A DNA stretch of 64,000 nt from Candidatus Zhuqueibacterota bacterium. Lineage in GTDB: Bacteria > Zhuqueibacterota > Zhuqueibacteria > Residuimicrobiales > Krinioviventaceae. Position 1 is the stretch's first letter; every line of letters starts with the position of its first letter. Under the pieces are notes generated by a model. It made no database searches, was not told the origin of the DNA, and saw only the letters and a list, made by a program, of their open reading frames with translations. The stretch spans positions 44,240 to 108,239 of the forward strand of contig JAPDQV010000003.1 of assembly GCA_034505495.1 (NCBI GenBank). Direction: 5' to 3'. Below, in pieces: positions 42,891 to 62,905 of the stretch. A program made the position numbers and the translations under genes.

Positions 42891-42893
42891 AAA

Positions 42894-43997
42894 ATGAAAA
42901 TTAGTCGCCGACAATTTCTTTTTACAGCCGCCGCTTCATTGGGCGCAGCAGGAATCGCCGCTGCGGCGGGCAAGAACGACGTCGACAAGCTGCACGAAGC
43001 GCGGTACTATAAAAAGCTGCCGCAGCGTAAAATAGAATGCGAACTCTGCCCGCGGCGATGCGTCATAGACGACATGGAGCGAGGCTACTGCGGTGTGCGC
43101 GAAAATCACGGCGGCGTCTATTACTCACTCGTCTACGGCCAAGTCTGCAGCGCCAATATCGACCCGATCGAAAAAAAGCCGCTGTTTCATTTTCTGCCTG
43201 GTGCCAAAGCCTTTTCGATTGCAACCGTCGGTTGTAACGTTATGTGCAAGTTCTGTCAGAATTGGGAAATCTCGCAGGCCAACGTCGATCAGGTCAAATC
43301 GATGGAACTTTTGCCCGCGCAGACGGCTGCGATTGCCAAGGACCGTCGCTGTGAAGTTATTGCCTACACCTATACCGAACCGGTCGTTTTCACGGAATAC
43401 ATGTATGATTGCGCCGTGGAAGGCCGAAAGGCCGGGGTGCGCAGCGTGATGATATCGAACGGCTACATAAATGCGCAGCCGATGAAGGATTTGTGCAACG
43501 TACTGGACGCCGTCAAGATTGATTTGAAGGCGTTTAACGAACGGTTTTATAGAGAGCTTGTGGCGGGCGAACTCAAGCCGGTGTTGGATACTCTCGTGCT
43601 GCTGAAAAAGCAAAAAATGTGGACCGAGATCGTTTACTTGGTGATCCCCGGACAAAATGATGATCCCGGAGAACTGCGCGAGATGTGCACCTGGATCAAG
43701 AACGACTTGGGGCCGGAGACGCCGGTACACTTTAGCCGGTTTCACCCCCAATATCGATTGACCAACATACCGGCTACGCCTTTGGAAGTATTGCGCAAAG
43801 CGCGGCGCATCGGTTTGGAGTGCGGTCTCTATTATGTCTACACCGGCAATGTGCCGGGGGATGAGGGCGAAAGCACCTATTGCCCGAACTGCGGTGCCGT
43901 AGTCATCAAGCGGTTCGGTTTTTCGGTACTGAGTCGCGCCCTCAAAGATGGAAGATGCGTTGCCTGCGGCAGGGCGATTGCAGGCGTGTGGAGCTGA
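42894..43997 (+). CDS. AmmeMemoRadiSam system radical SAM enzyme, with Tat-like N-terminus
   Basis: CNVMCKFC (CxxxCxxC) radical SAM motif. PFL-activase-like family. Adjacent to the Memo/AMMECR1 gene. N-terminus SRRQFLFTAAASLGAAGIAAAAG. Confidence 0.8.
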   Translation: MKISRRQFLFTAAASLGAAGIAAAAGKNDVDKLHEARYYKKLPQRKIECELCPRRCVIDDMERGYCGVRENHGGVYYSLVYGQVCSANIDPIEKKPLFHFLPGAKAFSIATVGCNVMCKFCQNWEISQANVDQVKSMELLPAQTAAIAKDRRCEVIAYTYTEPVVFTEYMYDCAVEGRKAGVRSVMISNGYINAQPMKDLCNVLDAVKIDLKAFNERFYRELVAGELKPVLDTLVLLKKQKMWTEIVYLVIPGQNDDPGELREMCTWIKNDLGPETPVHFSRFHPQYRLTNIPATPLEVLRKARRIGLECGLYYVYTGNVPGDEGESTYCPNCGAVVIKRFGFSVLSRALKDGRCVACGRAIAGVWS

Positions 43998-44015
43998 AGA
44001 AAATCGCTTTAGGAA

Positions 44016-45518
44016 TTGTTTATGAAGAGAGGCTGCAACTTTTTTCTTTGTATTTTCGCCATGTGGAGCGGAGCCATGTTGAACGAAAGAGCAGAAGCAC
44101 AAGTACGGCCGCCGATGGTAGCGGGTCAATTCTATCCGGCCGACGCCCAACAGCTGTCGCGAGACGTTAAGCGCTACTTGGACAAGGCGGAAGACCTTCG
44201 TCTGCCGCCGATCATTGGTCTGCTTGTTCCGCATGCGGGGTACATTTATTCCGGCGCTACGGCTGCCGCCGGTTACAAGCAGGCGGCTCGACAGAAAGTC
44301 GAGTTGGCGGTGGTCATTTCTCCCACGCATCGCGAGTATTTCGAGGGAGTGACAATCTACCCAGGAGACGCCTACGAAACCCCGTTAGGAAAAATGGCCA
44401 TTGACAAACAAACGGCGGCCAAATTGGTTGCATCGCATTCAGCCGTGCATTTCAGTGAACGGGGACATCGGGCCGAGCACGCCTTGGAAGTGCAGTTGCC
44501 GTTTCTTCAGACTCTGTTTCCGCAGGCCAAGCTTTTGCCTTTGGTCGTCGGCCCTGATTGCGACTGGAAGACCTGCGAATCCGTCGGAAGAGCCCTTGCC
44601 GACGTCGTGCGCGGCAGGCAGGCTTTGATCGTCGCCAGTTCGGATCTCTATCATGGAGAGTCTTACTCGGATTGCGTCAAAATCAGCAAGGAGACGCTGG
44701 ATGCGGTGACGCGCCTGCAGCCTGAAGCTTTGTTCCGCGGGCTGCAGCGGGATACCTATCAGGCCTGCGGCGGCCTGCCCGCGGTGATTATGGAAACGGC
44801 GGCCATGGCCTTGGGTGCCGATGAGGCAAAACTGATCGCCCAGACCAATTCGAATGATGTGACCGGAACCCGCGGCGGCTATGTCGTGGGGTACGGCGCG
44901 GTTGCGCTCTATAAAAAAGCTTCGCAAGAGAATCGATCGGATAAAGTCGAATACAAGCCGTTACCGTTGGCCGAACAGAAATATTTGCTCAAGTTGGCCC
45001 GTTGGGCGATCGCGGAAAGATTGAAAGTCAAATCCGTCGAAGCACCGGCGAAACTCGCGAGTCCAATACTGCAAGAAAAGCGCGGAGTATTTGTAACGCT
45101 CACTCAAAAAGGTCACCTGCGCGGCTGTATCGGCCGCCATGAGGCGGATGTTCCTCTGGAAGAGTTGGTGCCGCAGATGGCTCGCGCCGCCGCCTTTGAA
45201 GATCCGCGTTTTCCGCCGCTGCGTCCCGAGGAGCTGGCTATTACGGACATCAAGATTTCGGTCTATTTGACCAACGTCTACCGAATTCACGATCTGTCCG
45301 AGTTCAAAATGGGCGAGCATGGGATCATCTTGAAAAAAGGATTTCATGCCGCTACCTATTTGCCGGAAGTGCCGCTCGAAGCCGGGTGGAAGACGGTGGA
45401 GGAAGAGATGGCCAGCCTCTGTCTCAAAGCCGGCCTGCCGCCGGATGCCTGGAAGAGCGGAGCCGAATTCTGGGTTTACAAAACACAGGTGTTCGACGAG
45501 TCGATTCTAAAGAAATGA
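44016..45518 (+). CDS. Memo-like (AmmeMemoRadiSam protein B) fused to AMMECR1 (protein A), with N-terminal signal peptide
   Basis: N-terminal half is MEMO1 family (QFYPAD..., LLVPHAGYIYSG). C-terminal half is AMMECR1 (RGCIGRHEA...). Preceded by a hydrophobic signal-like segment. Confidence 0.8.
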   Translation: MFMKRGCNFFLCIFAMWSGAMLNERAEAQVRPPMVAGQFYPADAQQLSRDVKRYLDKAEDLRLPPIIGLLVPHAGYIYSGATAAAGYKQAARQKVELAVVISPTHREYFEGVTIYPGDAYETPLGKMAIDKQTAAKLVASHSAVHFSERGHRAEHALEVQLPFLQTLFPQAKLLPLVVGPDCDWKTCESVGRALADVVRGRQALIVASSDLYHGESYSDCVKISKETLDAVTRLQPEALFRGLQRDTYQACGGLPAVIMETAAMALGADEAKLIAQTNSNDVTGTRGGYVVGYGAVALYKKASQENRSDKVEYKPLPLAEQKYLLKLARWAIAERLKVKSVEAPAKLASPILQEKRGVFVTLTQKGHLRGCIGRHEADVPLEELVPQMARAAAFEDPRFPPLRPEELAITDIKISVYLTNVYRIHDLSEFKMGEHGIILKKGFHAATYLPEVPLEAGWKTVEEEMASLCLKAGLPPDAWKSGAEFWVYKTQVFDESILKK

Positions 45519-45526
45519 AAAAGAAT

Positions 45527-45562
45527 GCGGGCAAAGGCAAAAGCTTTTGCCCGTTTTTGTTT
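45527..45562 (+). terminator. rho-independent terminator
   Basis: cgggcaaa...tttgcccg stem containing an internal palindrome (gcaaaagcttttgc), followed by a T-run. Confidence 0.7.
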
Positions 45563-45662: not shown

Positions 45663-47852
45663 TTGTGTACTTTAACGAAACAGGTCATGTTTTTTTCCGT
45701 ATTCTGGGCCGGTCATTACACAGATCGGAGCAGCTTTGAGATACAGCAGCGGATTTTCCGCATGAAATATTTCAGTCAACTTTCGTTACTTCTTCCTTTT
45801 GCGTTTTTTTGCGCCGCTGCGGCCTTGTATTTGGCAGGCGACAGAACCGTCGCTTTGACTTGGGTCGGCTTACGGCACGAGGTCTTTGTCATCACCGCAG
45901 TGATCCTCTCCCTGCCGTTGATTTACAGACAAAAATGGGCATCCGATCGGAACGTTTTGCGCGGCATTCGCCATCTCTTTTTTCTGATAGTCATGACCGG
46001 CGGCATTTTGTTCCTTTCGCGCCAAAGATTCAGCCTGCTGCAGCAAAAGATCATCAGCCAGGATTGGTTTCGGCTCAATTGGAGCGATTCCGTCTTTGTC
46101 GTTTTATGGGCATTTTTTTCATTGATTTTTATTTTAATAGCCCTCGGCACCCTCCGCAACCTGATTTACGTTAAAAGGCGGCGAAACACCGCCCGCCATT
46201 TTGCCTGGCTGATGGTTTTGATGTTGCTTTATGCCTTTCTCGGATTGTATAAAAGCAGAACGCAAACCGAATTCGTCGAGAACGAGTTTCTCAAATACTT
46301 TGACAATATCGTTCTTTTTCTGCTCATCAACTTTATCGTCATCAATTCCTTTCGGGTCGGCTGGATCAATTATCTGAATAAAAAGCAAAAACTGGCCTGC
46401 TTTTTCGGCGGTTTTTTACTCATTCCTTTGCAGATCTCCTTCGTCAACCAATTTAAAGAGGTCAGCCCGGTTTACAACTTTAGCCCGTTTCTTGAGCGGT
46501 TTGTGGAAATGGGGATGATCTTTATTGCGGTTTATCTGAGTTTTGCCTTTCTGGCGCTTCTTGCGCACCTGCCGACCGCCAGGCTGTACGACCGAAAGCT
46601 GCAGCAGATCCGTTCTCTGCATGACCTAAGTCGAGTATTGAGCTCAGAGTTTGATTGGGACCGATTGGTGCAGACGATCGTTCGGCTGGCCGCTCAAGTG
46701 ACCGAGGCACAGTATAGCTGGCTCGAGCTGTACGTTAACGGCCGTTTGGCTCTGGCCTCGTCTTGGAATTTGAGTCTGAATGAAGAACGCCGCCGGCAGG
46801 CAGATGAGCAGGATCGTCTGTACGAAGCGCTGCGCAGTGAGCGGGAGTCCCTATTGCTCAACGAAGCCGGCAAAGATCCGCTCCTTCGCACGTTGCGCCG
46901 CTGGAAAAGCGGTCTCGGCTCTCTGGTGGCCGCGCCGTTGATCACCTCGGATCAGGTTTTGGGTTACCTCTTTGCCGCAAAACAGGAGGAATTTTCCTTC
47001 GAGCAGGACGATGCGGAGATGATGCGCGCCTTTGCAGACCAAGCGGCGGCGGCGATCATGAACGCCAAACTGGTCGAACAGTCGCTGGTAAAGGAAAGGC
47101 TCGAACAAGAGCTGCGCATTGCTCATGAGGCGCAGATGAAGCTGCTGCCTAAAACTATGCCTGTTCTAAACGGCATGGCATTTGATGCAGTCTGCATTAC
47201 AGCCAACGAAGTGGGCGGCGATTACTATGATTTTTTCGACATCGGCGAGGAATTAACGGCGGTAGTGGTCGGCGATGTTTCCGGCAAGGGCCCTTCAGCA
47301 GCTTTTTACATGGCCGAGGTGAAGGGGATTATGGAGGCGCTGGCGGCTGAACGGCTTTCTCCCGAAGAGATGCTGGCCATCGTTAATGAAACGGTTTATC
47401 GCAACTTTGACCGCAACACCTTTATCAGCCTGATCTACGGGTTGGTGGATGCCCGACGCCGCCGCTTTACCTTTTGCCGCGCCGGACATTGCCCGGTCTA
47501 CCATTATCGCGCTGCGGAGGCGGCGGTTCGTCGCTTGGAACCGCGCGGCATAGGTCTCGGCCTTACCTCCAGCCCTCTGTTTCAGAACACCCTGGAAACG
47601 ATGATCGTGGATATTCTGCCGCAGGATTGTTTTCTCCTCTTCACCGACGGCGTCATCGAAGCGAGAAATCCTGCCGGTGAAGAGTTCGGCGAAGAGCGGC
47701 TGGCTGAAGCCTTTCAAGAGGCTAATGAAACCCATGCAAACGAAATCAAGAAGCATCTTCTTCATCGCATTTATGCATTCTTTGACGGCGCCGCGGCGTT
47801 TGATGATCTGACATTCGTGCTCTTCAAGGCGGTTGCCGAGACCGAAAGCTAA
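45663..47852 (+). CDS. membrane sensor (~8 TM) GAF / PP2C (SpoIIE-type) serine phosphatase
   Basis: Long hydrophobic N-terminus, GAF region and C-terminal PP2C (GDVSGKGPSAAFYMAEVKG...). The true start may lie downstream (e.g. MKYFSQ). Confidence 0.75.
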   Translation: MCTLTKQVMFFSVFWAGHYTDRSSFEIQQRIFRMKYFSQLSLLLPFAFFCAAAALYLAGDRTVALTWVGLRHEVFVITAVILSLPLIYRQKWASDRNVLRGIRHLFFLIVMTGGILFLSRQRFSLLQQKIISQDWFRLNWSDSVFVVLWAFFSLIFILIALGTLRNLIYVKRRRNTARHFAWLMVLMLLYAFLGLYKSRTQTEFVENEFLKYFDNIVLFLLINFIVINSFRVGWINYLNKKQKLACFFGGFLLIPLQISFVNQFKEVSPVYNFSPFLERFVEMGMIFIAVYLSFAFLALLAHLPTARLYDRKLQQIRSLHDLSRVLSSEFDWDRLVQTIVRLAAQVTEAQYSWLELYVNGRLALASSWNLSLNEERRRQADEQDRLYEALRSERESLLLNEAGKDPLLRTLRRWKSGLGSLVAAPLITSDQVLGYLFAAKQEEFSFEQDDAEMMRAFADQAAAAIMNAKLVEQSLVKERLEQELRIAHEAQMKLLPKTMPVLNGMAFDAVCITANEVGGDYYDFFDIGEELTAVVVGDVSGKGPSAAFYMAEVKGIMEALAAERLSPEEMLAIVNETVYRNFDRNTFISLIYGLVDARRRRFTFCRAGHCPVYHYRAAEAAVRRLEPRGIGLGLTSSPLFQNTLETMIVDILPQDCFLLFTDGVIEARNPAGEEFGEERLAEAFQEANETHANEIKKHLLHRIYAFFDGAAAFDDLTFVLFKAVAETES

Positions 47853-47878
47853 ATGCTGCAGTCATTCGGAGGAAAACA

Positions 47879-48262
47879 ATGGAGACCTTTACAATTCAAC
47901 GACAAGACAAAGACGAATTATCTATTCTCAATCTTTCCGGTTTTTTGGACGCGCATACGGCTCCGGAACTGGAAAAGCAGCTCGATCAGCTCATCAATGA
48001 AGGCCGCAGCAAGATCATCGTAAATTTCGCGAATCTCAATTACATCAGCAGCGCCGGCCTCGGCGTATTCATGGGCAAAATCGAAACGGTCCGCAGTATG
48101 AACGGCGACATCAAGATGTGCAGAATGACGCCAAAAATTTTCCGAGTCTTTGATCTACTCGGATTCCCGACATTATACGACATTGTCCAGGAAGAGGAAG
48201 AGGCGGTGCAGCTTTTCGCGTCGAAAGAGCGCAGTTCGCGGAGAGCCGATGATAGAGCTTGA
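47879..48262 (+). CDS. STAS domain anti-sigma factor antagonist (SpoIIAA/RsbV-like)
   Basis: 127 aa STAS fold with a phosphorylatable Ser in the NYISSAGLG context. Confidence 0.85.
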   Translation: METFTIQRQDKDELSILNLSGFLDAHTAPELEKQLDQLINEGRSKIIVNFANLNYISSAGLGVFMGKIETVRSMNGDIKMCRMTPKIFRVFDLLGFPTLYDIVQEEEEAVQLFASKERSSRRADDRA

Positions 48263-48306
48263 GATCGCAGGCTTTTGCGGCCAATACCTACTGAGGAACG
48301 GATGTT

Positions 48307-48783
48307 ATGCCGAAAAATGAAATGACTTATTGCTTGCGGATACCCAGCCGCACGGACAACCTCGAGCTGATCCGCGAATTTGTCGCTCGTGTGGCCCGAA
48401 AGGTCGGCTTTGACGAGGACGATGTGGGCAAGATCGAGCTGGCCTGCGACGAGGCTTGTTCGAACGTCATTAAACACGCTTACGAGCAAAAGAACGGCAG
48501 TCAAAGCCTGGATGTTGTCATTCGCGTCGATTTGAAAAAACTGACCCTCATCGTCACCGACCATGGCAAAGGATTCGATCCTTCCAAGGTCATTGTTCCG
48601 GACATGAAGGAATATCTGGCGCAGCTCAAAGTCGGCGGACTGGGCATCTATTTAATGCGCACGCTGATGGATGAAGTCGATTACGACATCAAACCCGGCG
48701 TACGCAATCAGGTCAAGATGGTCAAGTATCTTATCGATAAAAAGAGCTCCAAGGTGGTAAAGGCCGACAGGAATGAGGAATGA
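48307..48783 (+). CDS. anti-sigma regulatory factor / Ser-Thr kinase (RsbW/SpoIIAB-like HATPase)
   Basis: GHKL ATPase N-box ELACDEACSNVIKHAY and G-boxes. Confidence 0.85.
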   Translation: MPKNEMTYCLRIPSRTDNLELIREFVARVARKVGFDEDDVGKIELACDEACSNVIKHAYEQKNGSQSLDVVIRVDLKKLTLIVTDHGKGFDPSKVIVPDMKEYLAQLKVGGLGIYLMRTLMDEVDYDIKPGVRNQVKMVKYLIDKKSSKVVKADRNEE

Positions 48784-50534
48784 TGCGCGCTCGATCGTCG
48801 GCTCGAAAACTCGATCTGCGCAGCGTGGAGCTGCGGTCGTTGATCGAACTCAGTCAGGTGCTCAACGCTTCGCTGGACGCCGATGCAGTGCTCAATACTT
48901 GCCTTCTCACGCCGATGGGACGAATGCTCATCAGCCGCGGCATGGCTTTGACTGCGGACGAAAACGGAAGTCTCGGCGTGCGCATCCTCAAAGGACTGCC
49001 CGCCTCTCTTGCCCAACAACGCTTTACATTTGAGTATGCATTTCGCACGCCGACCCGACTTGCTGAATTGCCGGACGATGTCTGCCGCTACAAGCCGTTT
49101 TTGCAAAGTCTCGGCATTGAGTTGGTGGTGCCGATGTGCTCGCCGAGCCGAATGGTCGGCGCCTTGTGCTTCGGCGGCAAAATGACCGGCAAACCGTTTT
49201 CCCCTCGCGAACTCGAATTTCTCAATTCGTTTTCCAACATTGCCGCCACGGCGCTGGAAAATGCCTTAATGTTCCAAAGCCTAATAACCGTCAACCGGCG
49301 CCTGGACCGCAAGGTGCATGAACTTAACACTTTGTTCGAGGTCGGTAAGGAACTGAACACGGCATTGGATCGGGAGAGGATTCTTGCCATTCTGCAGCAC
49401 ACGGTTATGGGACAAATGACGGTCAATAAATTGATCATGATCGAGGTAGGAGAAGATCAAACGATCGAATACCCCATCCTCAAGTGGCCGGAGCGAACCG
49501 AGTTGGACCGTATTCTGGCCGAGAAAGAGTTGATTTTGAGCTTGTCGGAATTGAACGAAGCGCGTCTTTTGACGGCTGAGGAACCGGCACATCGACTTTT
49601 GTTCGAGGCCGGCGTTCGTGCGGTCGTACCGATGCGGCTGCAGGAAGAAACACGGGCACTATTGCTGCTCGGCAAAAGGCTTTCGCGGCAAGAGTACGCG
49701 CAGGAGGATCTGGATTTCTTGTCTACACTCGGCAATCGCGTCATGGTATCGTTGGAAAACGTCAGGCTCTTCCAAGAGGCGCTGGAAAAGCAGCGGCTGG
49801 AAGAGGAGATGGCGATTGCCGAATCGATTCAGCAGCGGCTGCTGCCGCGCACTTTTCCCTCGCTGCACGGCATCGAGATTTACGGTCTCAATCAGCCCTC
49901 GCGAATGGTCGGCGGCGACTATTTCGACTGCATTCCGCTGAGCGACGGCCGCGTCGTTTTGGCCGTGGGAGACGTTTCCGGCAAAGGCCTCGGCGCGGCG
50001 CTGCTCATGTCGAACCTCCATGCCGGTTTGCATACGCTGCTGCAGTCCGGTTTGCCCATGAACGAGATGATCAAGCGGCTGAACGATCTGATCTATCGCC
50101 ACACCGATTTCGACAAGTTCATTACTTTTTTCTACGCCGAACTTGATCCGCAAAGCCGTCTGCTTCGCTATGTCAACGCCGGGCACAACCCGCCGATGCT
50201 TTGTCGCAGCGACGGCAGCATCGGACTGCTTACGGAAGGCGGCCTAATTCTCGGCATGCTGGAGGATGTCGATTATATGATCGGTCAAGTCGAACTGCGC
50301 AGCGGCGATCTGCTGGCGGCCTACACCGACGGGGTGACCGATGCGCGCAACAGCGCGGATGAACTCTTTGACGAGGATCGATTAGCGGAGCTGGTCAGGA
50401 CAGCGGCCCGCAGCGATCTGCGCGCCGACGAGTTGTGCACGCAAATCGTCAAGGCCGTCGAAGACTTTAGCGGCGATCTCCCCCAGGCAGACGACATCAC
50501 CCTGTTAATTGTAAAGGTCCAAGAAAAGACATGA
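48780..50534 (+). CDS. tandem GAF / PP2C (RsbU/SpoIIE-type) phosphatase
   Basis: Two GAF-like regions, then PP2C (GGDYFD..., GDVSGKGLGAALLM). Confidence 0.8.
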   Translation: MMRARSSARKLDLRSVELRSLIELSQVLNASLDADAVLNTCLLTPMGRMLISRGMALTADENGSLGVRILKGLPASLAQQRFTFEYAFRTPTRLAELPDDVCRYKPFLQSLGIELVVPMCSPSRMVGALCFGGKMTGKPFSPRELEFLNSFSNIAATALENALMFQSLITVNRRLDRKVHELNTLFEVGKELNTALDRERILAILQHTVMGQMTVNKLIMIEVGEDQTIEYPILKWPERTELDRILAEKELILSLSELNEARLLTAEEPAHRLLFEAGVRAVVPMRLQEETRALLLLGKRLSRQEYAQEDLDFLSTLGNRVMVSLENVRLFQEALEKQRLEEEMAIAESIQQRLLPRTFPSLHGIEIYGLNQPSRMVGGDYFDCIPLSDGRVVLAVGDVSGKGLGAALLMSNLHAGLHTLLQSGLPMNEMIKRLNDLIYRHTDFDKFITFFYAELDPQSRLLRYVNAGHNPPMLCRSDGSIGLLTEGGLILGMLEDVDYMIGQVELRSGDLLAAYTDGVTDARNSADELFDEDRLAELVRTAARSDLRADELCTQIVKAVEDFSGDLPQADDITLLIVKVQEKT

Positions 50535-51703
50535 ATGGAGTTAAGGCAAAACATTCGGCAGCGCGCATCCTTTTGGTGGATGACGATGCAAACAACCGAC
50601 GATATTATTTCAATGTGCTGAAACGGCAGGGCTATGAGCTCGACGAAGCCGCCTCCGGTGAAGAGGCGATCGAAAAGATTCGCGGCAACGATTACGACGT
50701 GGTGGTCAGCGACCTGCAAATGTATCAGTTGAGCGGCTTGGACGTGTTGGAAGCCGCCAAGGCAAGGGATCCGTTCACGCAGGTCCTGATCATGACCGGT
50801 TACGGCAGCATTCCCACGGCCGTTCTGGCGATGCAGCAGGGCGCGTTCGATTATCTTTCCAAGCCGGTACAAAAGGACGCTTTGGTTCTGCGCGTTCAGC
50901 GGGCGTTGCGCGAACGGGCGCTGCGTCTGCAGTTGAAAGAACAGCAGGAGCGCATCGAGGCGCACAACCGCATGATCGAGCGCGACCTCGAGCTGGCGCA
51001 AAAGGTGCAGGCCAGCCTGGTGCCGTCGGATTTCGAGAATGAGCGATACGCCGTAGCCATTCACTATGAACCAATGATCGGAATCGGCGGCGATTTTTGC
51101 AACGTCATGCCGTTCGACGAGGATCGATTTATCGTCAACATGGTCGATGTAACCGGACATGGTATTGCAGCTGCGCTGCTTGTCAACCGAGTATGGAATG
51201 AGTTAGAGTCCGTGCTGCATCGGCAGCCGTCGCCGGCAGAGGTGCTGAGGCAGATCAATGACTTTTTTTATGCGACGTTTTCGAAAATGGGGCTTTTTAT
51301 GACCATCTTTGCTTTGGTCGTCGATCTGCGTAAAATGGAGGTGACCTATGCCGGCGGCGCCCACCCTGCAGCGCTCGTTGCCAATGCGAACCGTCCAACT
51401 CTTCGCGAGTTGCCTTCGGACAATTTGATCATCGGATTTATGCCTTCGGATCGGGTCAAATTTTTCGAAGCCTCGGCGCCGCTGGAGCACGGCGACCGTA
51501 TTGCCGTTTATACCGACGGCATTCTGGAGGCGGAAAGCGAAAAAGGCTGTTGTTACAGCATGCAGCGGCTCAAGGAAACGTTTGCCGCTCATCGCGCTGA
51601 GCCGGCGGCCGTCGCCTGCCGCAGCATCGTCGAAGACGTCAAGGCATTCAGCGGCGGCGTTTTGCGCGACGATGTGATGCTGATGTTGATCGAAATCAAA
51701 TGA
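50531..51703 (+). CDS. response regulator receiver / PP2C phosphatase
   Basis: Canonical REC (LLVDDD..., VVSDLQM, LSKP) fused to a PP2C domain. Confidence 0.85.
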   Translation: MNGVKAKHSAARILLVDDDANNRRYYFNVLKRQGYELDEAASGEEAIEKIRGNDYDVVVSDLQMYQLSGLDVLEAAKARDPFTQVLIMTGYGSIPTAVLAMQQGAFDYLSKPVQKDALVLRVQRALRERALRLQLKEQQERIEAHNRMIERDLELAQKVQASLVPSDFENERYAVAIHYEPMIGIGGDFCNVMPFDEDRFIVNMVDVTGHGIAAALLVNRVWNELESVLHRQPSPAEVLRQINDFFYATFSKMGLFMTIFALVVDLRKMEVTYAGGAHPAALVANANRPTLRELPSDNLIIGFMPSDRVKFFEASAPLEHGDRIAVYTDGILEAESEKGCCYSMQRLKETFAAHRAEPAAVACRSIVEDVKAFSGGVLRDDVMLMLIEIK

Positions 51704-53139
51704 ACGTTATGAAACATACCAAGCAGAAAACAGCTCTGCTGTTCAATCCCTGGATCTACGACTTTGCCGCTTATGACTTTTGGATCAAGCCGATCGGTCT
51801 TTTGACCCTCGGCAGCCTGCTGAGGGCGAACGGCTGGACGGTGCAGCTGATCGACTGTTTGGATCGCTATCATCCCTTGACCGCCGGCAAAAGCAAGGAC
51901 AAAGGCGACGGCACCGGCAAGTTCATTCGACAGGAGATCGAAAAACCGGCGGTGCTGAAGGATGTGCCGCGCCGATTTTGCCGCTACGGTATGCCGCCGG
52001 ATCTCGTACGCAGCCTGCTTGAGAAAATCGAGCCGCCGGACCTTATTCTGGTTACCTCGGTGATGACTTATTGGTATCCGGCGGTCAGAGATGCCGTCCG
52101 GCTATTGCAAGAATATTTCCCGCAGGCTCATCTTATGCTCGGCGGCATTTACGCCACTCTATGTCCCGAGCATGCTGCAGCCGTGCAGCCCGACGAACTG
52201 GTGACCGGCGAGGGAGAGCTTGCCGTCATGCGCCGTGCCGCCCGGATTGCCGGAGAAGATGCTGATTTTTCATTTCACAGCTTAGACGACCTTCCCTTTC
52301 CGGCTCTCGATCTTTATCCGGTTTTGGTTTCCGCGCCGCTGCTCACTTCGCGCGGTTGTCCCAATCGCTGCAGCTTTTGCGCCTCGCCGATTCTTTGCCC
52401 CGCTTATCGCCGTCGATCGCCTGAAAACGTTCTCGCAGAGATCGAACTGCTGTACGCACGCGGCGTGAGTCAGTTTGCTTTTTTCGACGATGCGCTTCTT
52501 CACCAGGCGGAACGGTATATCAAACCGATTTTGCGTCAGGTCATCGAACGTCGTTGGCGCCTCCATTTCCACACGCCGAACGGTCTGACGCCGCGTTTTA
52601 TCGACGAAGAGTTGGCGCACCTCTTTCGGGCCGCCGGTGTGGAGACGATTCGACTGAGCTTCGAAACGGCTAATCCGGAGCGATGGCGGGCTATGTCCGG
52701 CAAAGTGAGCATCGAGGATCTGCGCCGAGCCTTGGCCAATCTCGAAGCCGCCGGCTACGATCGCCGTGAGATCGGTGTGTATCTGCTGATGGGTCTGCCG
52801 GATCAGTTGCCGGAAGAATTTCGCGAAAGCGCTCGGTTGGTGCACGATCTTGGGGCGCGCCTTTATCCGGCATCCTTTTCGCCCATTCCAGGAACCTCGG
52901 ATTGGCGAAAATCTGTTGCGTCCGGCTTATGGGACCCTCAGGCCGATCTGCTGCTTACCAATACAACCCTTTTCCCGCTTTGGCGGAAGCTTTACAGTTG
53001 GTCATTCTGCAACGAGCTGATGGAATGGACTCACGATCTCAACCGTCGCCTTGACAAAACGATCGACGATGAAAAACGCAGCCGACCGGCCGACGGCGAA
53101 GCAATGCTTTGTGATGTTCCGGAATCTTTTCTATTTTGA
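51700..53139 (+). CDS. B12-binding-domain radical SAM protein
   Basis: N-terminal B12-binding-like Rossmann domain, CPNRCSFC (CxxxCxxC) cluster motif and elongated rSAM core. 4-nt overlaps on both sides. Confidence 0.75.
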   Translation: MNVMKHTKQKTALLFNPWIYDFAAYDFWIKPIGLLTLGSLLRANGWTVQLIDCLDRYHPLTAGKSKDKGDGTGKFIRQEIEKPAVLKDVPRRFCRYGMPPDLVRSLLEKIEPPDLILVTSVMTYWYPAVRDAVRLLQEYFPQAHLMLGGIYATLCPEHAAAVQPDELVTGEGELAVMRRAARIAGEDADFSFHSLDDLPFPALDLYPVLVSAPLLTSRGCPNRCSFCASPILCPAYRRRSPENVLAEIELLYARGVSQFAFFDDALLHQAERYIKPILRQVIERRWRLHFHTPNGLTPRFIDEELAHLFRAAGVETIRLSFETANPERWRAMSGKVSIEDLRRALANLEAAGYDRREIGVYLLMGLPDQLPEEFRESARLVHDLGARLYPASFSPIPGTSDWRKSVASGLWDPQADLLLTNTTLFPLWRKLYSWSFCNELMEWTHDLNRRLDKTIDDEKRSRPADGEAMLCDVPESFLF

Positions 53140-53145
53140 CCGGCA

Positions 53146-55152
53146 ATGAGAGTCGGAGACGAAATTCGTTTGAACCGCATTTGGGTAAAATTGTCGGCCG
53201 TCATTACCCTGCTGGTTTTACTGCTGATGATTGTGGTCTTTCGCTTGATCACCCTGCGTCAGATCAAGACTGAGCGCGATCAGCTGCGCGATCATATGGA
53301 GCGGATTGCCATGCAGATCGCCTCGATTCGGCTGACTTCGGCGGACGATCTTCTCATTTATCAGGAATGGATCAAGGGTATCCTCGACTCGCCCGCCGGT
53401 AAGGATATCGTGTACATTGCCATTTATGACCGTAACCGCCGACTTTTCGCATACGCTCTCAATCCGCAGTATCTGGACGTTCCCTCTCCGCAGTTGCTGA
53501 CGCCGGAGGATGAGGTCGACATCATTCAGCGGCTCAGCCGCGGCGAGGTGGCGGAGGAAAGCTGGAACGACTTTGATCACGTGCCGGTGGAGATACGCAC
53601 CGGCCGGCTCGATCTCGGCCGCGTCGACGTCGGCTTTTCTCTGATCGATTTCAACAATCGAGCGCGCAGAAATCTGCTCATTAACGTCTATATTTTGGCC
53701 GGCGCCTTTGCGGCCGTAGCCGGTCTGTCGATCCTTATCGGTCGACGCATCACGCAGCCGCTTGAACGACTCTCCGCCGCCATGCTGGATGTTTCGCACG
53801 GCAACCTCGACGTGCGCGTATCGATCAAAAGCCGCGATGAGCTGGGCAAGCTGATCGACAGCTTTAATTATATGACGCTGCGGCTGCGGGAAAAACGGCA
53901 GATCGAAATGTTTTCCCAAGACCTCATGCTTTTTTTCGAACACGAAAAGCTGCTGCAGTTGGTGATCGAACGGATCGTGGGGTATCTGGGAGCCGACTAT
54001 GGTGCGTTGTTTCTGCTCGAAAACCGCGGTGAGACTACGGCAGCGGTCTCCCGCTGGAGTGCCCCGATTCCTCTGCAGGCGACAATCGAAGAAACGTTCG
54101 ATCAGGATTGCCTGTACCAAGTCGTCGGCCGACTGGAGCCGTTCTTTATCGATAAAAACCGCCATGCAGGAACCCTCCTGCGGCTTCAGGAGAGATTGAA
54201 AGAACGACTGGGCGCCGACCAATTCGTTTTAGCGTCGCCGATGGTCAGCCAGGGCGAGGTGCTCGGCTTTGTTCTGCTGTCGCACGAAACCGACGGCAGC
54301 CATTACGACGGCGACGAGCTGATGTTTTTACGTACGCTTTGCGGCCAAGCCGGTATGGCGGTCCGTAACAGCATGCTGCTCCGCGACTTGACCCTCCAAC
54401 AGCGACTGCAGAAAGAGCTCGAAATCGCCAGGCAGGTTCAAGCAGGCCTGCTGCCGGATCGGGAGCCGTGTTTGGACGGCCTGCAGTTGGCAGGCGCCTG
54501 TCTGCCCGCAGAAAAGGTGGGCGGCGATTACTATGACTATTTCGTTTTGGACGATCATCGCCTCGGCATAGCCGTGGCCGACGTTTCCGGCAAAGGCACT
54601 TCAGCAGCATTCTACATGGCCGAAATCAAGGGCATGATGTCGTCGATGACGCAGTTCATAACCTCACCCAAGGAATTGATGCGGCGTCTCAACCGGCTGT
54701 TATGCCGAACCGTCGATCGACGTATTTTTACCACCATGTTGTACGGCATAATCGATTTGGCGGCGGGCGAGTTTGTCTTTGTAAGAGCGGGGCACAATCC
54801 GTTGCTCGTGCGCCATGCGGATGGGACCGTCGATTTGCTCGTGCCGCGCGGCATGGCTTTGGGCTTGGCGGGCGATGAATTGTTTGACCGTTTTACGGAA
54901 GAGTATCGTCTGCCGCTCCGCGCCGGTGACATTCTTTTTATCTTTACCGATGGCCTTACGGACGCCAGGAACGCAACCAATGAGGAATTCGGCGAAGAGA
55001 GGCTGGCGGCTTGGCTGCGGGCGTGTGATGTTGCCGATCCGATGCATATCCGACAGCAAATCTTGCAAAAGATCGACGAATTCGCCGGCGGCGCCGTGCA
55101 GCATGACGACATCACCCTCGTGATTGCAGCCGTAGCTGCGAAAAAATCTTGA
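53146..55152 (+). CDS. membrane HAMP / GAF / PP2C phosphatase
   Basis: N-terminal TM, periplasmic-like segment, second TM and HAMP, GAF, then PP2C (GGDYYD..., DVSGKGTSAAFYMAEIKG). Confidence 0.8.
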   Translation: MRVGDEIRLNRIWVKLSAVITLLVLLLMIVVFRLITLRQIKTERDQLRDHMERIAMQIASIRLTSADDLLIYQEWIKGILDSPAGKDIVYIAIYDRNRRLFAYALNPQYLDVPSPQLLTPEDEVDIIQRLSRGEVAEESWNDFDHVPVEIRTGRLDLGRVDVGFSLIDFNNRARRNLLINVYILAGAFAAVAGLSILIGRRITQPLERLSAAMLDVSHGNLDVRVSIKSRDELGKLIDSFNYMTLRLREKRQIEMFSQDLMLFFEHEKLLQLVIERIVGYLGADYGALFLLENRGETTAAVSRWSAPIPLQATIEETFDQDCLYQVVGRLEPFFIDKNRHAGTLLRLQERLKERLGADQFVLASPMVSQGEVLGFVLLSHETDGSHYDGDELMFLRTLCGQAGMAVRNSMLLRDLTLQQRLQKELEIARQVQAGLLPDREPCLDGLQLAGACLPAEKVGGDYYDYFVLDDHRLGIAVADVSGKGTSAAFYMAEIKGMMSSMTQFITSPKELMRRLNRLLCRTVDRRIFTTMLYGIIDLAAGEFVFVRAGHNPLLVRHADGTVDLLVPRGMALGLAGDELFDRFTEEYRLPLRAGDILFIFTDGLTDARNATNEEFGEERLAAWLRACDVADPMHIRQQILQKIDEFAGGAVQHDDITLVIAAVAAKKS

Positions 55153-57713
55153 GATTCCCTATGTCGAACGGAACGAGACGAACGTTTGTCCTATTGGCGG
55201 CTCTTTTTTTGACCTGCGGCACCCAGGAAGAGCGCCGTATCCGGCTGAGCCGTCGGCCGTTGGACGTGCTGTCGCAGGAGCGCGTGCGCGCCGTCAGAAT
55301 TGCCGTGGAAGAGAAAAAGCGCCTTGCCATTCTGCCTTTAAAAAACGAAACGCCGGATGCCGCCCCGACTTGGCTTGGGCAGGGCTTGGCGGATATGCTT
55401 GCCCTCACTCTATCACAATCGAGGCAACTCAATCTTATCCCCAGCCGCACCGTCAACGACGTTTTGGCGCGCGCGAAACTCAAGCTCGAGGACTTGACCA
55501 CGGCGCCGCTGTGTCGTCGTGCCGCCGCCGAACTCCGCGCCGACGCCCTCATCAACGGCTGCTATCGATACGTCGGCGATTCCTTGATTGTCGAACTGAA
55601 TATATGGGACGGTCTGAGCGGCGAGCGTCTGGAAAAGTTAACCGCCGGCACCGGCAAGATCGACATCAAACCGCTCTTTCGCATGATTAATGCATCTGCC
55701 GGAAAAATCCGCAGCCTGATGGAAAGGCAGAAAAATGACGAACCGCCGATTCAGGAAAAGACGACGCCGTTGGTTACGACGCATTCTCTGGAAGCCTACC
55801 GTCTCTATACGGAAGGTGTGGCGCTGCTGGAAGGGTTTTCGATCGGCGAGGCGGCGTCCAAGTTCGCCCAAGCGGTGCAGCTCGATTCGACGTTTGCCTC
55901 GGCCTGCATGCGCCTGGCTCTCTGTCAGTTGATGGTCGGCCGGAAAAGCGAAGCAAAAGCCCTGCTGCGCCAAGCGCTGCGTCATTCGGCCCAGCTGCCC
56001 GAGCGCGAAAGGCTGCCGATTCTGGCCTTGAAAGCGCAAGTGGACGGCGACTATAATCAGGCTGTGCGTCTTTATGAGCAATACCTGGAATCTTTTCCCC
56101 AGGACGTTCAGGGTCATTACCAACTTGGCGAATACTATTTCAGCGTAGCCCGTGACTATCGCAGGGCAATCAGCTATTTAGAAACCGTCATCAGCCTCGA
56201 TCCCAATTACAAAAGCGCCTACAATCTGTTGACTTATTGTTATGCCATGATCGGCGAACTGGAGCGCGCTTTGGACGCTCTTGACCGCTATATTGAACTC
56301 GCCCCTAATGAGGCCAACCCCTATGACAGTTACGGTGAAATTCTTCACAGCGCCGGCCGGATCCAAGAGGCAACTGAAAAGTACCGAACAGCTTTGCGCA
56401 TCAATCCGGCGTTTGTCCCCGCTCAACTTCACCTTGCCGCGGCTTACTTGGACATGGGCAAAACGGGCAAAGCGCGCAGATTTCTGCAAAAGAAGGTGCT
56501 CAATCAGAAAGACGTTGCCGCCCGCCGAGGCGGATTCAAGCTTCAGGTACTGACCGAAATCGTCGCCGGCGACATTAACCGCGCGGAAAGGCTCCTGCGT
56601 TCCGTAGGATCGTCGAATCCGGAAGAACAGCTTTGGAGTACGTACGTTCTTTTGCTGCTTCGCCCGGATTCCCAAGAATACCGCCGCGACTTTGTCGAGC
56701 TGGTCGAAAAAGAGTCGGCGCGCATGGCCGATCCGGATTATGCGGCGGAAAGGTTGTTTCAGATCAGTTCTCTGGCTTTGGAACTCCAGATTGCCTTGCC
56801 GGAGGTGAGCCGTCTGCTCTATGAATATCTGCGCAGCCACTCCTCACCTTTGGCCATGCAGATTGTGCTTGCCTATGCGGGAGTGTTTCAACTTTACGGC
56901 ATTCCGTTCTCGGTTCAGGACGAACTTTTGCCGTCGATTCGATCCATGCCCGAAACGTTTCAAAGCTGGGGGCCTATACCGTGGGATTATTATTGGAAAT
57001 ACTTTTTTATCGGACTCGATCGCGCCTCTAAGCGCGGGATCGATGTACAGGCAGTAGCGGACGATCTGGCCGATTTTGCAGGGCGCAGCGGTAATCGGTC
57101 GATGCAGATGGAAAGCGTTCTGGCTCAGGCGGCCGCTGCGCATTTGCAAGGTCAAGCGGACAGAGCGAGGCAGATCCTTGCCCAAGCTGGGATGCCTGTG
57201 GAAAGCGATTGGCTCGTTCTCGGTCCCTTTGAGGTTCGGCGCGGCTTTTCGCAAACCTTTTGGCCCGAAAAGCACACGATGAACGAATGGTCGAAACTCG
57301 ATTTGCAGCCGATACCGCAGCCTGCCGCCGACAGCCGCTTTGACGGTTATATCGATTTACACGAAATATTTACGACCCGATTCAATCAGGCGGCGTATGC
57401 GATGCTGTACGTCTATTCGCCGACGTTGCGCAAGGCAGTGTTTGCCGTGGGGACTAATGCCCGACTTAAAGTCTGGTTGAACGATGAACCGCAGCGGATG
57501 ATCGTCCGCACCGCTCCTGCCGTGATCGATCAGGATTTTATTCCCATACGCTTAAAGCCGGGGTTGAACCACCTGCTGCTGCGCCTGGACGTTCCTTTCG
57601 GCGAGATCGGATTCTACGGTCGATTCCTCACCCCCTTCGGCGAGGCGATTACCGACTTGAAATTCGGCGAGCAGGCGACAGCCGCTGCCCGCGAAATGGA
57701 GCCTAGCGAATGA
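55149..57713 (+). CDS. large secreted TPR-repeat protein
   Basis: Signal peptide, then 854 aa dominated by TPR-like repeats. Confidence 0.6.
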   Translation: MRFPMSNGTRRTFVLLAALFLTCGTQEERRIRLSRRPLDVLSQERVRAVRIAVEEKKRLAILPLKNETPDAAPTWLGQGLADMLALTLSQSRQLNLIPSRTVNDVLARAKLKLEDLTTAPLCRRAAAELRADALINGCYRYVGDSLIVELNIWDGLSGERLEKLTAGTGKIDIKPLFRMINASAGKIRSLMERQKNDEPPIQEKTTPLVTTHSLEAYRLYTEGVALLEGFSIGEAASKFAQAVQLDSTFASACMRLALCQLMVGRKSEAKALLRQALRHSAQLPERERLPILALKAQVDGDYNQAVRLYEQYLESFPQDVQGHYQLGEYYFSVARDYRRAISYLETVISLDPNYKSAYNLLTYCYAMIGELERALDALDRYIELAPNEANPYDSYGEILHSAGRIQEATEKYRTALRINPAFVPAQLHLAAAYLDMGKTGKARRFLQKKVLNQKDVAARRGGFKLQVLTEIVAGDINRAERLLRSVGSSNPEEQLWSTYVLLLLRPDSQEYRRDFVELVEKESARMADPDYAAERLFQISSLALELQIALPEVSRLLYEYLRSHSSPLAMQIVLAYAGVFQLYGIPFSVQDELLPSIRSMPETFQSWGPIPWDYYWKYFFIGLDRASKRGIDVQAVADDLADFAGRSGNRSMQMESVLAQAAAAHLQGQADRARQILAQAGMPVESDWLVLGPFEVRRGFSQTFWPEKHTMNEWSKLDLQPIPQPAADSRFDGYIDLHEIFTTRFNQAAYAMLYVYSPTLRKAVFAVGTNARLKVWLNDEPQRMIVRTAPAVIDQDFIPIRLKPGLNHLLLRLDVPFGEIGFYGRFLTPFGEAITDLKFGEQATAAAREMEPSE

Positions 57714-58348
57714 ACGAACGGTACGAAAAAAAACCGCCTTTTTTTACGGCCGTGGCCGGCAATATCGGCGTCGGCAAGACGACGCTTACCCGCTTGGCTG
57801 CCGAACGACTCGGCCTCAGACCCTTTTTTGAGCGCGTCATCGATAATCCCTACCTGGACGATTTTTATCGCGATATGGCCCGTTGGAGCTTTAACCTGCA
57901 GATCTTTTTCCTCTCTAAGCGATTCATCGATCAGCGCAAAATTTCCGAGAGCAGAGAACCGTGCATCCAGGATCGATCCATTTATGAAGATGCCGAAATT
58001 TTTGCTTATATTCTGCACAAGCAGGGTTATATGAGCGATCGCGACTATCAAAACTATTGCGACCTGTTCGCTGTTATGACCGATTATCTGCGTAAACCGG
58101 ATTTGATCGTCTATCTGCGCGCCTCGACATGGACCCTGATTACTCGCATTCGCAAACGCGGTCGCGAGTTCGAAAAGCGCATTACCGTCGATTATCTGCA
58201 CGAACTGAACGAAGCGTATGAGCGTTGGATCAAAAAGGTGCAAAAGACGATGAACGTATTAACGGTCGATACCGACCGCTTCGATTTCGAAAACGATCCT
58301 GAGCAGTTAGATCAAGTGATCCGGCAGATCGCATCTTTCATCAACTGA
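57710..58348 (+). CDS. deoxynucleoside kinase
   Basis: P-loop GNIGVGKTT and dNK family layout. Confidence 0.8.
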   Translation: MNERYEKKPPFFTAVAGNIGVGKTTLTRLAAERLGLRPFFERVIDNPYLDDFYRDMARWSFNLQIFFLSKRFIDQRKISESREPCIQDRSIYEDAEIFAYILHKQGYMSDRDYQNYCDLFAVMTDYLRKPDLIVYLRASTWTLITRIRKRGREFEKRITVDYLHELNEAYERWIKKVQKTMNVLTVDTDRFDFENDPEQLDQVIRQIASFIN

Positions 58349-58358
58349 GAGGTGAGGT

Positions 58359-59156
58359 ATGGAGAGTTCGAAAAGCAAATCCCGCATTATCACGCTGACA
58401 ACCGACTTTGGGCTGAGAGACGCGTTCGTAGGCGTGATGAAAGGGGTTATTTTACGAATCAATCCGGCGGCCCGAATCGTGGACATTACCCACGGCATCG
58501 CTCAGGGCGATATCGACGCTGCGGCTTTTGCCTTGGATCAGGCACATGCTTTTTTCCCAGAAGAAACGATCCATGTCGTCGTCGTCGATCCGACCGTCGG
58601 CACAGATCGCCGCATTCTCCTGGTGCGTGCCGGCGGCTGGTTCTTCCTTGCTCCGGACAATACCGTGCTCAAGTATATTTTCGCCCGCTATGGGGATGCC
58701 CAGGTGCTGGCGGTCACCAACAGTTACTATTTTCTGCCGCACACCAGCCGGACGTTTCATGGCCGCGACATTATGGCGCCGGTGGCCGCCCATCTTTCTC
58801 TCGGTACGGCATTTCTTGATTTCGGCACTCGAATCGACGATCCGCTGCGCGGCGAGGTGCTTTTGCCGCTGCGTAAAGGAAAAACCATCCACGGCAAGAT
58901 CGTCTATATCGACCATTTCGGCAACTGCATCAGCAACATTTCGAAAAAGGATTTGGTGGGCGAGACGGTCAAAGAAATCAATGTCAAGGAATTCCAATTC
59001 GACCGCCTGAGCCGCTCCTATGCCGAAAATCCCGTCGGCGAGCCGCTCGCCATTGTCAGCAGTCACGACCATCTGGAGATCGCCGTGCGCGACGGCAATG
59101 CCGCCGCTATTCTCAAGCTCGAGAAAGGCGACCCGATAGAAGTCGTTTTGGAATAA
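58359..59156 (+). CDS. SAM hydroxide adenosyltransferase (DUF62)
   Basis: ITLTTDFG...DAFVGVMKGVI N-terminal signature. 265 aa. Confidence 0.8.
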   Translation: MESSKSKSRIITLTTDFGLRDAFVGVMKGVILRINPAARIVDITHGIAQGDIDAAAFALDQAHAFFPEETIHVVVVDPTVGTDRRILLVRAGGWFFLAPDNTVLKYIFARYGDAQVLAVTNSYYFLPHTSRTFHGRDIMAPVAAHLSLGTAFLDFGTRIDDPLRGEVLLPLRKGKTIHGKIVYIDHFGNCISNISKKDLVGETVKEINVKEFQFDRLSRSYAENPVGEPLAIVSSHDHLEIAVRDGNAAAILKLEKGDPIEVVLE

Positions 59157-59180
59157 ACTGGAAAGCGGCCAAGAGCGCAT

Positions 59181-60038: not shown

Positions 60039-60039
60039 T

Positions 60040-62897: not shown

Positions 62898-62905
62898 AGG
62901 GGATA

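What the first reader, a model, noticed from the sequence alone, without database searches (positions are those of the whole stretch)
51700..53139. B12-binding radical SAM enzyme of unknown function, translationally coupled inside a phosphatase operon
479-aa protein with a Rossmann-like B12-binding N-terminal domain, a CxxxCxxC cluster motif (CPNRCSFC) and a long C-terminal extension. Its start overlaps the stop of the REC-PP2C gene (ATGA-type), and the downstream HAMP-GAF-PP2C gene starts 6 nt after its stop. Class-B rSAM enzymes are usually methyltransferases or ring-contracting enzymes in natural-product or lipid pathways. None has been tied to partner-switching regulation.
Basis: partly seen in the sequence, partly recalled or inferred. 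Interest (0 to 1): 0.6.

Follow-up and report, generated by a model that had tools for sequence, protein, structure and literature searches.

The report
Uncharacterised B12-type radical SAM enzyme gene
This is a real, intact gene for a vitamin-B12-type radical SAM enzyme of unknown substrate inside a signalling-phosphatase operon, but its orthologues elsewhere sit in unrelated neighbourhoods, so the signalling link looks like local gene order in one KSB1 lineage.

Summary
ORF 51700..53139 (+) encodes a 479-aa protein with a B12-binding-type Rossmann domain, a CPNRCSFC cluster motif and a radical SAM barrel. Its start overlaps the REC-PP2C stop by 4 nt (ATGA), and the HAMP-GAF-PP2C gene starts 6 nt after its stop. 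No curated subfamily claims it: the best NCBIfam hit, BchE, scores 74 bits against a cutoff of 481. It belongs to a large unnamed family (624 50%-identity clusters at E<=1e-30) found mostly in uncultured phyla. The closest solved structures are AprD4, which binds no cobalamin, and the cobalamin enzymes TsrM and QCMT/MgmA.

The implied tie to partner switching is weak. Direct PP2C adjacency occurs in 17 of 99 related loci, and the 15 of those placed in the 94-sequence tree form one clade. Within that clade about 20 kb is collinear, including housekeeping genes. One sister-clade protein, seen in two loci, has the same phosphatase core 3.6 kb upstream behind unrelated genes. The other orthologues (40-47% identical, full length) have unrelated neighbours. 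Linked and unlinked orthologues share 76 positions conserved at 90% or more and differ at only 4 clade-specific positions.

Verdict: an ordinary new member of an uncharacterised class-B-type radical SAM family, co-transcribed with signalling genes in one lineage. Substrate and cobalamin use remain unknown.

The parts
51700..53139 (+). Gene for the 479-aa B12-binding-domain radical SAM protein (stop codon included)
   Evidence: ORF list; Pfam PF02310 and PF04055 both above gathering score; AF2 model with mean pLDDT 90.7
51727..52269 (+). N-terminal Rossmann (B12-binding-type) domain, residues ~10-190. It has five strands and five helices. The loops at the C-terminal edge of the sheet are conserved: NPWxYDFAAYDFW, DCLDR, TSxMTYWYP, GG148-149, GEGE170-173
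51856..52038 (+). Family-specific insertion in the Rossmann domain, residues 53-113 (DRxHP, GKFxR, KP, PRxxxRYG), with small beta elements
   Evidence: Alignment A1; model block pLDDT 83-98 across the insertion. Its role is unknown (inference)
52357..52380 (+). CxxxCxxC motif CPNRCSFC (C220, C224, C227), ligands of the SAM-cleaving [4Fe-4S] cluster
   Evidence: Read from the sequence; invariant in 44 homologues and conserved at >=90% in both linked and unlinked clades
52330..52899 (+). Radical SAM partial TIM-barrel core, residues ~211-400, with conserved DDAL (263-266), HTPNG (291-295), SFE (320-322), GLPxQ (365-369) and SPIPGT (394-399)
53092..53136 (+). Variable C-terminal tail predicted to be disordered (residues 465-479)
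   Evidence: pLDDT <50; not conserved in A1
51700..51703 (+). ATGA start/stop overlap with the upstream REC-PP2C gene
   Evidence: Sequence. The same 4-nt overlap occurs in L010, L013 and L014; L011 has a 9-nt gap instead
50531..51703 (+). REC-SpoIIE(PP2C) phosphatase, last gene of the five-gene partner-switching core
   Evidence: Pfam Response_reg 94.7 bits and SpoIIE 134.5 bits
53146..55152 (+). HAMP-GAF-SpoIIE(PP2C) membrane phosphatase, 6 nt downstream of the rSAM gene
   Evidence: Pfam HAMP, GAF and SpoIIE
45762..50534 (+). Rest of the partner-switching core: membrane GAF-PP2C (the ORF opens at 45663; probable start M34 at 45762 gives 696 aa, as in L013/L014), STAS 47879..48262, RsbW-like kinase 48307..48783, GAF-PP2C 48780..50534
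   Evidence: Pfam; orthologue lengths
55149..57713 (+). 854-aa TPR protein that travels with the HAMP-GAF-PP2C gene
   Evidence: Pfam TPR families; the pair is kept in L015/L016 where both flanks differ
45527..45554 (+). Strong intrinsic-terminator-like hairpin (12-bp stem plus T run) after the Memo-AMMECR1 gene, marking the likely upstream boundary of the transcription unit that holds the rSAM gene
   Evidence: No comparably strong + strand terminator follows before ~58 kb

Best explanation
The gene encodes an intact orthologue of a large, unnamed family of class-B-type radical SAM enzymes, built from an N-terminal B12-binding-type Rossmann domain, a radical SAM barrel and a short C-terminal helical cap. 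Inferred mechanism: the CxxxCxxC [4Fe-4S] cluster reductively cleaves SAM to a 5'-deoxyadenosyl radical, which abstracts a hydrogen atom from the substrate. A cobalamin held base-off on the conserved loops of the Rossmann domain then most likely delivers a methyl group, giving C-methylation of an unactivated carbon. A non-methylating radical rearrangement is the main alternative. The substrate is a general cellular molecule rather than a component of the partner-switching pathway. In one KSB1 clade the gene happens to lie between the REC-PP2C and HAMP-GAF-PP2C genes and is co-transcribed with them, and with downstream housekeeping genes, in one long, tightly packed polycistron. Shown: domain architecture, motifs, fold, family size, lack of subfamily assignment, and the distribution of gene contexts. 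Inferred: SAM cleavage, cobalamin use, methyl transfer, and independence from the signalling module.
Against: Within the linked clade the gene has stayed next to one or another PP2C gene through three different rearrangements, and a sister KSB1 clade still has the phosphatase core within 3.6 kb. A weak selective linkage therefore cannot be excluded. The operon encodes no sigma factor or other obvious output, so an enzyme output is conceivable. No substrate is identified. Cobalamin binding is not demonstrated, and the best structural and profile match (AprD4) does not bind it.
Confidence: 0.6

Rival explanations
1. The enzyme is functionally coupled to the partner-switching network in this KSB1 clade. 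It could be the regulated output, sequestered or released by the RsbW-like kinase or the STAS protein in place of a sigma factor. It could also be the maker of a small molecule sensed by the GAF domains of the flanking phosphatases.
For: The 4-nt overlap with REC-PP2C is conserved in L010, L013 and L014. No sigma factor is encoded in the gene string. L015/L016 keep the rSAM, RidA, HAMP-GAF-PP2C and TPR genes together although both flanks differ. A precedent exists for partner-switching-like modules that control enzymes rather than sigma factors: HenR with a glycosyltransferase in Anabaena, from the abstract of PMC13555669.
Against: About 80 orthologous loci outside the clade lack any PP2C, STAS or RsbW gene within up to 10 kb. 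The linked copy shows almost no clade-specific sequence change. The same tight packing joins unrelated housekeeping genes. The core exists without an adjacent rSAM, and four loci (L001, L002, L020, L021) lack the HAMP-GAF-PP2C downstream of the rSAM.
Confidence: 0.12
2. The N-terminal domain is a B12-like Rossmann domain that does not bind cobalamin, as in AprD4 or ArsL. The enzyme would then catalyse a cobalamin-independent radical reaction such as dehydration, rearrangement or group transfer, not a methylation. This rival concerns the chemistry only and is compatible with either reading of the operon.
Confidence: 0.3
3. The enzyme post-translationally modifies a protein encoded in the same operon (a PP2C, the STAS protein or the TPR protein), by analogy with QCMT/MgmA, Mmp10 and RimO.
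Against: Orthologues with the same conserved residues occur in most lineages without these neighbours. No recognisable precursor peptide or conserved partner travels with the family.
Confidence: 0.04

Closest known systems
AprD4 (radical SAM 1,2-diol dehydratase of apramycin biosynthesis, PDB 6FD2)
   Different: Identity is only 17%. AprD4 does not bind cobalamin (PMC12931638). It also works in an aminoglycoside gene cluster (my own knowledge). Here the PF02310 signal is significant, the GG and GEGE motifs are conserved, and none of the surveyed contexts is recognisably a natural-product cluster.
Class I cobalamin-dependent radical SAM enzymes with solved structures: TsrM (6WTE), QCMT/MgmA (9CCB), CysS (9N1B), TokK (7KDX), OxsB (5UL2)
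   Different: Identity is 16-22%. This protein is shorter than TsrM, CysS, TokK and OxsB. It carries a family-specific 60-residue insertion in the Rossmann domain. Its substrate and cobalamin binding are unknown.
Curated B12-rSAM subfamilies: BchE, PhpK, HpnJ, HpnR, BzaD, ladderane-lipid rSAM, TIGR04013 (MJ_1487 family)
   Same: They give weak matches over the radical SAM core. TIGR04013 matches over both domains.
   Different: All scores are far below the curated cutoffs: BchE 74 against 481, PhpK 67 against 600, TIGR04013 55 against 251, HpnJ 40 against 578, HpnR 29 against 650. It is not a member of any of them.
Partner-switching modules (STAS, RsbW/SpoIIAB-type kinase, SpoIIE/RsbU-type PP2C), including those with non-sigma outputs such as HenR in Anabaena (PMC13555669)
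   Same: The flanking genes form a complete module with STAS, an HATPase_c_2 kinase and four PP2C phosphatases carrying GAF, REC or HAMP sensor domains.
   Different: The rSAM protein has none of the module's domains. Its family is not generally linked to such modules.

Membership tests
Radical SAM superfamily | CxxxCxxC motif that ligates the SAM-binding [4Fe-4S] cluster | tested here: met
   C220-x3-C224-x2-C227 at nt 52357..52380; invariant in 44 homologues
Radical SAM superfamily | Profile match to PF04055 above the gathering score, and a partial TIM-barrel fold | tested here: met
Radical SAM superfamily | Reductive cleavage of SAM to a 5'-deoxyadenosyl radical | not testable with these tools
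   Needs anaerobic biochemistry
Class B (B12-binding-domain) radical SAM enzymes | B12-binding-type Rossmann domain fused N-terminally to the radical SAM domain | tested here: met
Class B (B12-binding-domain) radical SAM enzymes | Actual binding and catalytic use of cobalamin | not testable with these tools
   The GG and GEGE motifs are conserved, but the best match, AprD4, is a non-binder. The question is unresolved
HpnP / HpnR / HpnJ (hopanoid), BchE / BchQ / BchR (bacteriochlorophyll), PhpK, BzaD, TsrM-type Trp methylase | Score at or above the curated NCBIfam equivalog cutoff | tested here: not met
   Best hit is BchE at 74.1 bits against 481. HpnJ scores 39.6 against 578, HpnR 29.1 against 650, PhpK 66.6 against 600 and the Trp methylase 30.8 against 500. 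HpnP, BchQ and BchR are not among the 25 families listed of 35 matched
AprD4-type diol dehydratases | Close sequence relationship to AprD4 and an aminoglycoside or natural-product cluster context | tested here: not met
   17% identity; none of the window operon or the contexts annotated by Pfam is recognisably a natural-product cluster. Catalytic residues were not compared
Partner-switching system component | Consistent co-occurrence with STAS, RsbW-type kinase and PP2C genes across the protein family | tested here: not met
   Directly adjacent in 17 of 99 loci; the 15 of those in the tree form one clade. One sister-clade protein (2 loci) has the core 3.6 kb away. The rest have none within up to 10 kb
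Partner-switching system component | Physical or regulatory interaction with the module's proteins | not testable with these tools
   No complex prediction or experiment was available

The most novel reading that the evidence does not exclude
In this KSB1 clade the radical SAM enzyme has been recruited as the effector or signal generator of a sigma-less, four-phosphatase partner-switching hub. Either the RsbW-like kinase and the STAS protein gate its activity, or its product is the ligand of the flanking GAF domains. That would be the first link between radical SAM chemistry and partner-switching signalling.
Probability: 0.1. Interest if true: 0.65.

Novelty: new member of a known kind. Interest (0 to 1): 0.25.

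Why it matters
As it stands, this adds one more member to one of the many uncharacterised groups of B12-type radical SAM enzymes. A 2026 review counts more than 100 such groups, most without a known function (PMC12931638). Its practical value is as a pointer. The family is large (hundreds of 50%-identity clusters), compact (~450 aa, a single Fe-S motif, a confident model) and concentrated in uncultured phyla, so it is a tractable target for function discovery. If the low-probability reading were true, it would show an enzyme output for a sigma-less partner-switching hub.

Tried and rejected
1. Assignment to a curated subfamily was rejected. A full NCBIfam scan gave nothing within a factor of four of any cutoff.

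2. A family-wide link to signalling genes was rejected. I surveyed 99 loci in total: 9 from genome contigs, 80 from metagenome contigs and 10 fetched by exact protein look-up. I called ORFs and compared them with the window's operon proteins, using phmmer scripts, clustering of neighbours and a neighbour-joining tree.

3. A search for a recurrent functional partner elsewhere in the family found nothing consistent. The most frequent neighbour clusters outside the KSB1 clade are an unannotated 78-aa protein with M16 peptidases (11 loci), baeRF (7), a NirD/AhbAB-like protein with MtnA (7), GWxTD (7) and RidA (5). These look like lineage-specific synteny.

4. A test for a second, 'generic' paralogue in the two near-complete genomes of the linked clade (contigs of 6.5 Mb and 2.45 Mb) was negative but weak. 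I searched with a sister-clade protein and looked for hits on contigs of those lengths. None appeared among the best 120 hits.

5. Horizontal transfer was rejected: GC and GC3 equal those of the neighbours.

6. An auxiliary Fe-S or metal site in the family-specific insertion was rejected. Only C53 is invariant. H58 is replaced in some members, and C93 falls below the 90% conservation threshold.

7. A pseudogene in the 93%-identical MAG (L008) was rejected. The ORF is broken only by a run of 100 N.

8. A Foldseek search of AFDB50 could not be run because the library was unavailable.

9. Two literature searches found no paper linking the two: radical SAM with partner-switching and SpoIIE returned nothing on such a link, and radical SAM with B12-binding and KSB1 returned no paper.

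10. Complex prediction with the kinase or STAS protein was not attempted, because the structure tool takes single chains from allowed sources only.

Full report
**Observation**

The 479-aa ORF at 51700..53139 (+) is real. Its ATG lies in an ATGA that contains the stop of the upstream gene (50531..51703). The next gene starts 6 nt after its TGA, at 53146.

Pfam finds Radical_SAM (79.2 bits, residues 216-381) and B12-binding (43.8 bits, residues 111-177), both above their gathering scores.

Upstream lie a membrane GAF-SpoIIE, a STAS protein, an HATPase_c_2 (RsbW-type) kinase and a GAF-SpoIIE. Downstream lies an 854-aa TPR protein. A strong terminator-like hairpin at 45527..45554 precedes this string, and no comparable one follows before about 58 kb.

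The tight spacing is not peculiar to the rSAM junctions. From 47879 to 63811, fourteen genes follow each other with overlaps or gaps of at most 44 nt. They include a deoxynucleoside kinase, a SAM-hydrolase-like gene, an M50 peptidase, a PBP and PfkB. GC and GC3 of the rSAM gene match its neighbours.

**The protein**

An alignment of 44 homologues (46-67% identical) shows invariant C220/C224/C227. It also shows a set of very conserved loops:
- NPWxYDFAAYDFWxKPxGLL
- DCLDR
- TSxMTYWYP
- GG148-149
- GEGE
- DDAL
- HTPNG
- SFE
- GLPxQ
- SPIPGT

No further conserved cysteine cluster is present.

The AlphaFold model is confident (mean pLDDT 90.7, pTM 0.89). It has a five-strand, five-helix Rossmann domain with a 60-residue family-specific insertion, a radical SAM barrel and a helical C-terminal cap. 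Only residues 465-479 are disordered. The 'long C-terminal extension' is therefore mostly a conserved part of the fold.

A family profile against PDB sequences also puts AprD4 first (E 1.4e-10), aligned through the C-terminal cap.

A 2026 review states that genuine B12-radical SAM enzymes bind cobalamin base-off without the DxHxxG histidine. It also states that AprD4 and ArsL homologues sit in the same similarity network but do not bind cobalamin (PMC12931638).

All 44 members hit PF02310, and the loops at the cofactor edge of the Rossmann sheet are among the most conserved positions. I therefore rate cobalamin binding as more likely than not, but unproven.

**Family assignment**

No NCBIfam model comes near its cutoff: BchE 74 against 481, PhpK 67 against 600, TIGR04013 55 against 251, HpnJ 40 against 578, HpnR 29 against 650.

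An exhaustive HMMER search of 1.84 billion cluster representatives finds 624 clusters at E<=1e-30 and 6340 at E<=1e-10. The listed best 150 are mostly full-length matches from proteins of about 430-490 aa.

Source names are generic ('radical SAM protein', 'YgiQ/UPF0313'). The named organisms are KSB1, Calditrichota, Eremiobacterota, Schekmanbacteria and candidate division B38.

The window itself is about 93% identical in DNA to a KSB1 MAG (L008). The rSAM ORF of that MAG is interrupted only by a run of N.

**Gene context across relatives**

Exact-protein look-ups show the same order in homologues 47-68% identical (L010, L011, L013, L014):
- GAF-PP2C
- STAS
- kinase
- GAF-PP2C
- REC-PP2C
- rSAM
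- HAMP-GAF-PP2C
- TPR
- dNK

In L011, L013 and L014 the order continues with the SAM hydrolase-like gene, the M50 peptidase and a PBP, and in L014 with PfkB. L010 ends inside the gene after TPR. AmmeMemoRadiSam genes lie upstream in L010, L011 and L014. The whole ~20 kb is therefore collinear.

I then surveyed 99 loci with scripts, combining 9 from genome contigs, 80 from metagenome contigs and 10 from protein look-ups.
- A PP2C gene is adjacent in 17 loci.
- In a neighbour-joining tree of 94 sequences, the 15 of those loci that entered the tree form one clade together with the window.
- Inside that clade there are three arrangements: the window type; a type lacking HAMP-GAF-PP2C and TPR, where the rSAM is followed by dNK (L001-L003, L020, L021); and a basal type lacking the upstream core (L015/L016: S51 peptidase, rSAM, RidA, HAMP-GAF-PP2C, TPR).
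- In a sister KSB1 clade the same five-gene core lies 3.6 kb upstream, separated from the rSAM by asparaginase, PCMT and DedA genes plus two small unannotated ORFs on the opposite strand (L098). Alternatively it is absent within 8 kb (L099).
- The other roughly 78 loci (40-47% identity, 360-440 bits, full length) have no PP2C, STAS or kinase gene within the sequence available. Their neighbours are M16 peptidases, a NirD/AhbAB-like protein with MtnA, baeRF, GWxTD, RidA, DUF72/QueE/QueC, RND efflux, IMPDH, DnaE and others.

Linked and unlinked orthologues share 76 positions conserved at 90% or more and differ by only 4 clade-specific residues, none in a catalytic motif.

A search seeded with a sister-clade protein listed no second copy on the 6.5-Mb or 2.45-Mb contigs of the linked clade. 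This test is weak, because only the best 120 hits are listed.

**Interpretation**

The enzyme is an orthologue of a widespread, uncharacterised class-B-type radical SAM family. Its biochemical role is most likely the same in all lineages and is not tied to partner switching. In one KSB1 clade it lies inside, and is co-transcribed with, a phosphatase-rich signalling string that also carries housekeeping genes.

The likely chemistry is SAM cleavage at the [4Fe-4S] cluster, hydrogen abstraction, and probably cobalamin-mediated methyl transfer. A cobalamin-independent, AprD4-like reaction is the main alternative. The substrate is unknown.

A residual case for functional coupling remains for four reasons. 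The gene stayed next to some PP2C gene through three rearrangements. A sister clade keeps the core nearby. The operon has no sigma factor. Partner-switching-like modules controlling enzymes are known (PMC13555669). I put this at about 10-12%.

**Novelty and score**

No paper in the searchable library links radical SAM enzymes to partner switching. The comparative evidence makes this a lineage-specific gene-order feature rather than a new system.

It is a new member of a known kind, an unnamed subfamily of B12-domain radical SAM enzymes. Interest is 0.25.

Noticed in passing
window 41916..45518: This is an AmmeMemoRadiSam system: a radical SAM enzyme (TIGR04337, 387 bits) and a Memo-AMMECR1 fusion (TIGR04336 plus TIGR04335). 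The radical SAM protein carries a ~35-aa N-terminal extension resembling a twin-arginine signal (MKISRRQFLFTAAASLGAAG...). The preceding 324-aa gene (MKRRDFLKSL...) and the Memo-AMMECR1 fusion also begin with signal-like peptides. An exported radical SAM enzyme would be unusual.
   Followed up: partly
window 45762..57713: This is a partner-switching hub with one STAS protein, one RsbW-type kinase and four PP2C phosphatases carrying different sensor domains (membrane+GAF, GAF, REC, HAMP+GAF), plus a large TPR protein. No sigma factor lies in the gene string, so the output is unknown. L001, L002, L013 and L014 have a fifth PP2C gene upstream.
   Followed up: partly
window 57710..59156: A deoxynucleoside kinase overlaps the TPR gene by 4 nt. 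It is followed by a SAM_HAT/DUF62 protein resembling (R)-S-adenosyl-L-methionine hydrolase (182 bits, below the cutoff of 350). Both are conserved in the same position in L011, L013, L014 and L018.
   Followed up: no
L015/L016 11575..11994; L099 9450..9908; L098 10813..11271; L026, L072: A RidA (Ribonuc_L-PSP) gene lies just downstream of the rSAM orthologue in three separate clades. PCMT (protein isoaspartate methyltransferase) lies upstream in L098 and L099. This is a weak lead to the ancestral context of the family.
   Followed up: partly
L017 756..5088 (candidate division B38) and L023: In L017 the rSAM orthologue sits between a DUF1847 protein and DUF72, followed by QueE-like and QueC genes. 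L023 has a downstream string of similar gene lengths, but its genes were not annotated. No signalling genes are present in either.
   Followed up: no
L008 2356..2455: The 93%-identical KSB1 MAG contig has a run of 100 N inside the rSAM gene. The ORF looks truncated at 310 aa, but this is an assembly or masking artefact and not a pseudogene.
   Followed up: yes
window 45663..45762: The first PP2C ORF opens at a TTG at 45663. The Met at 45762 gives 696 aa, the length of the orthologues in L013/L014, and is the more likely start.
   Followed up: partly
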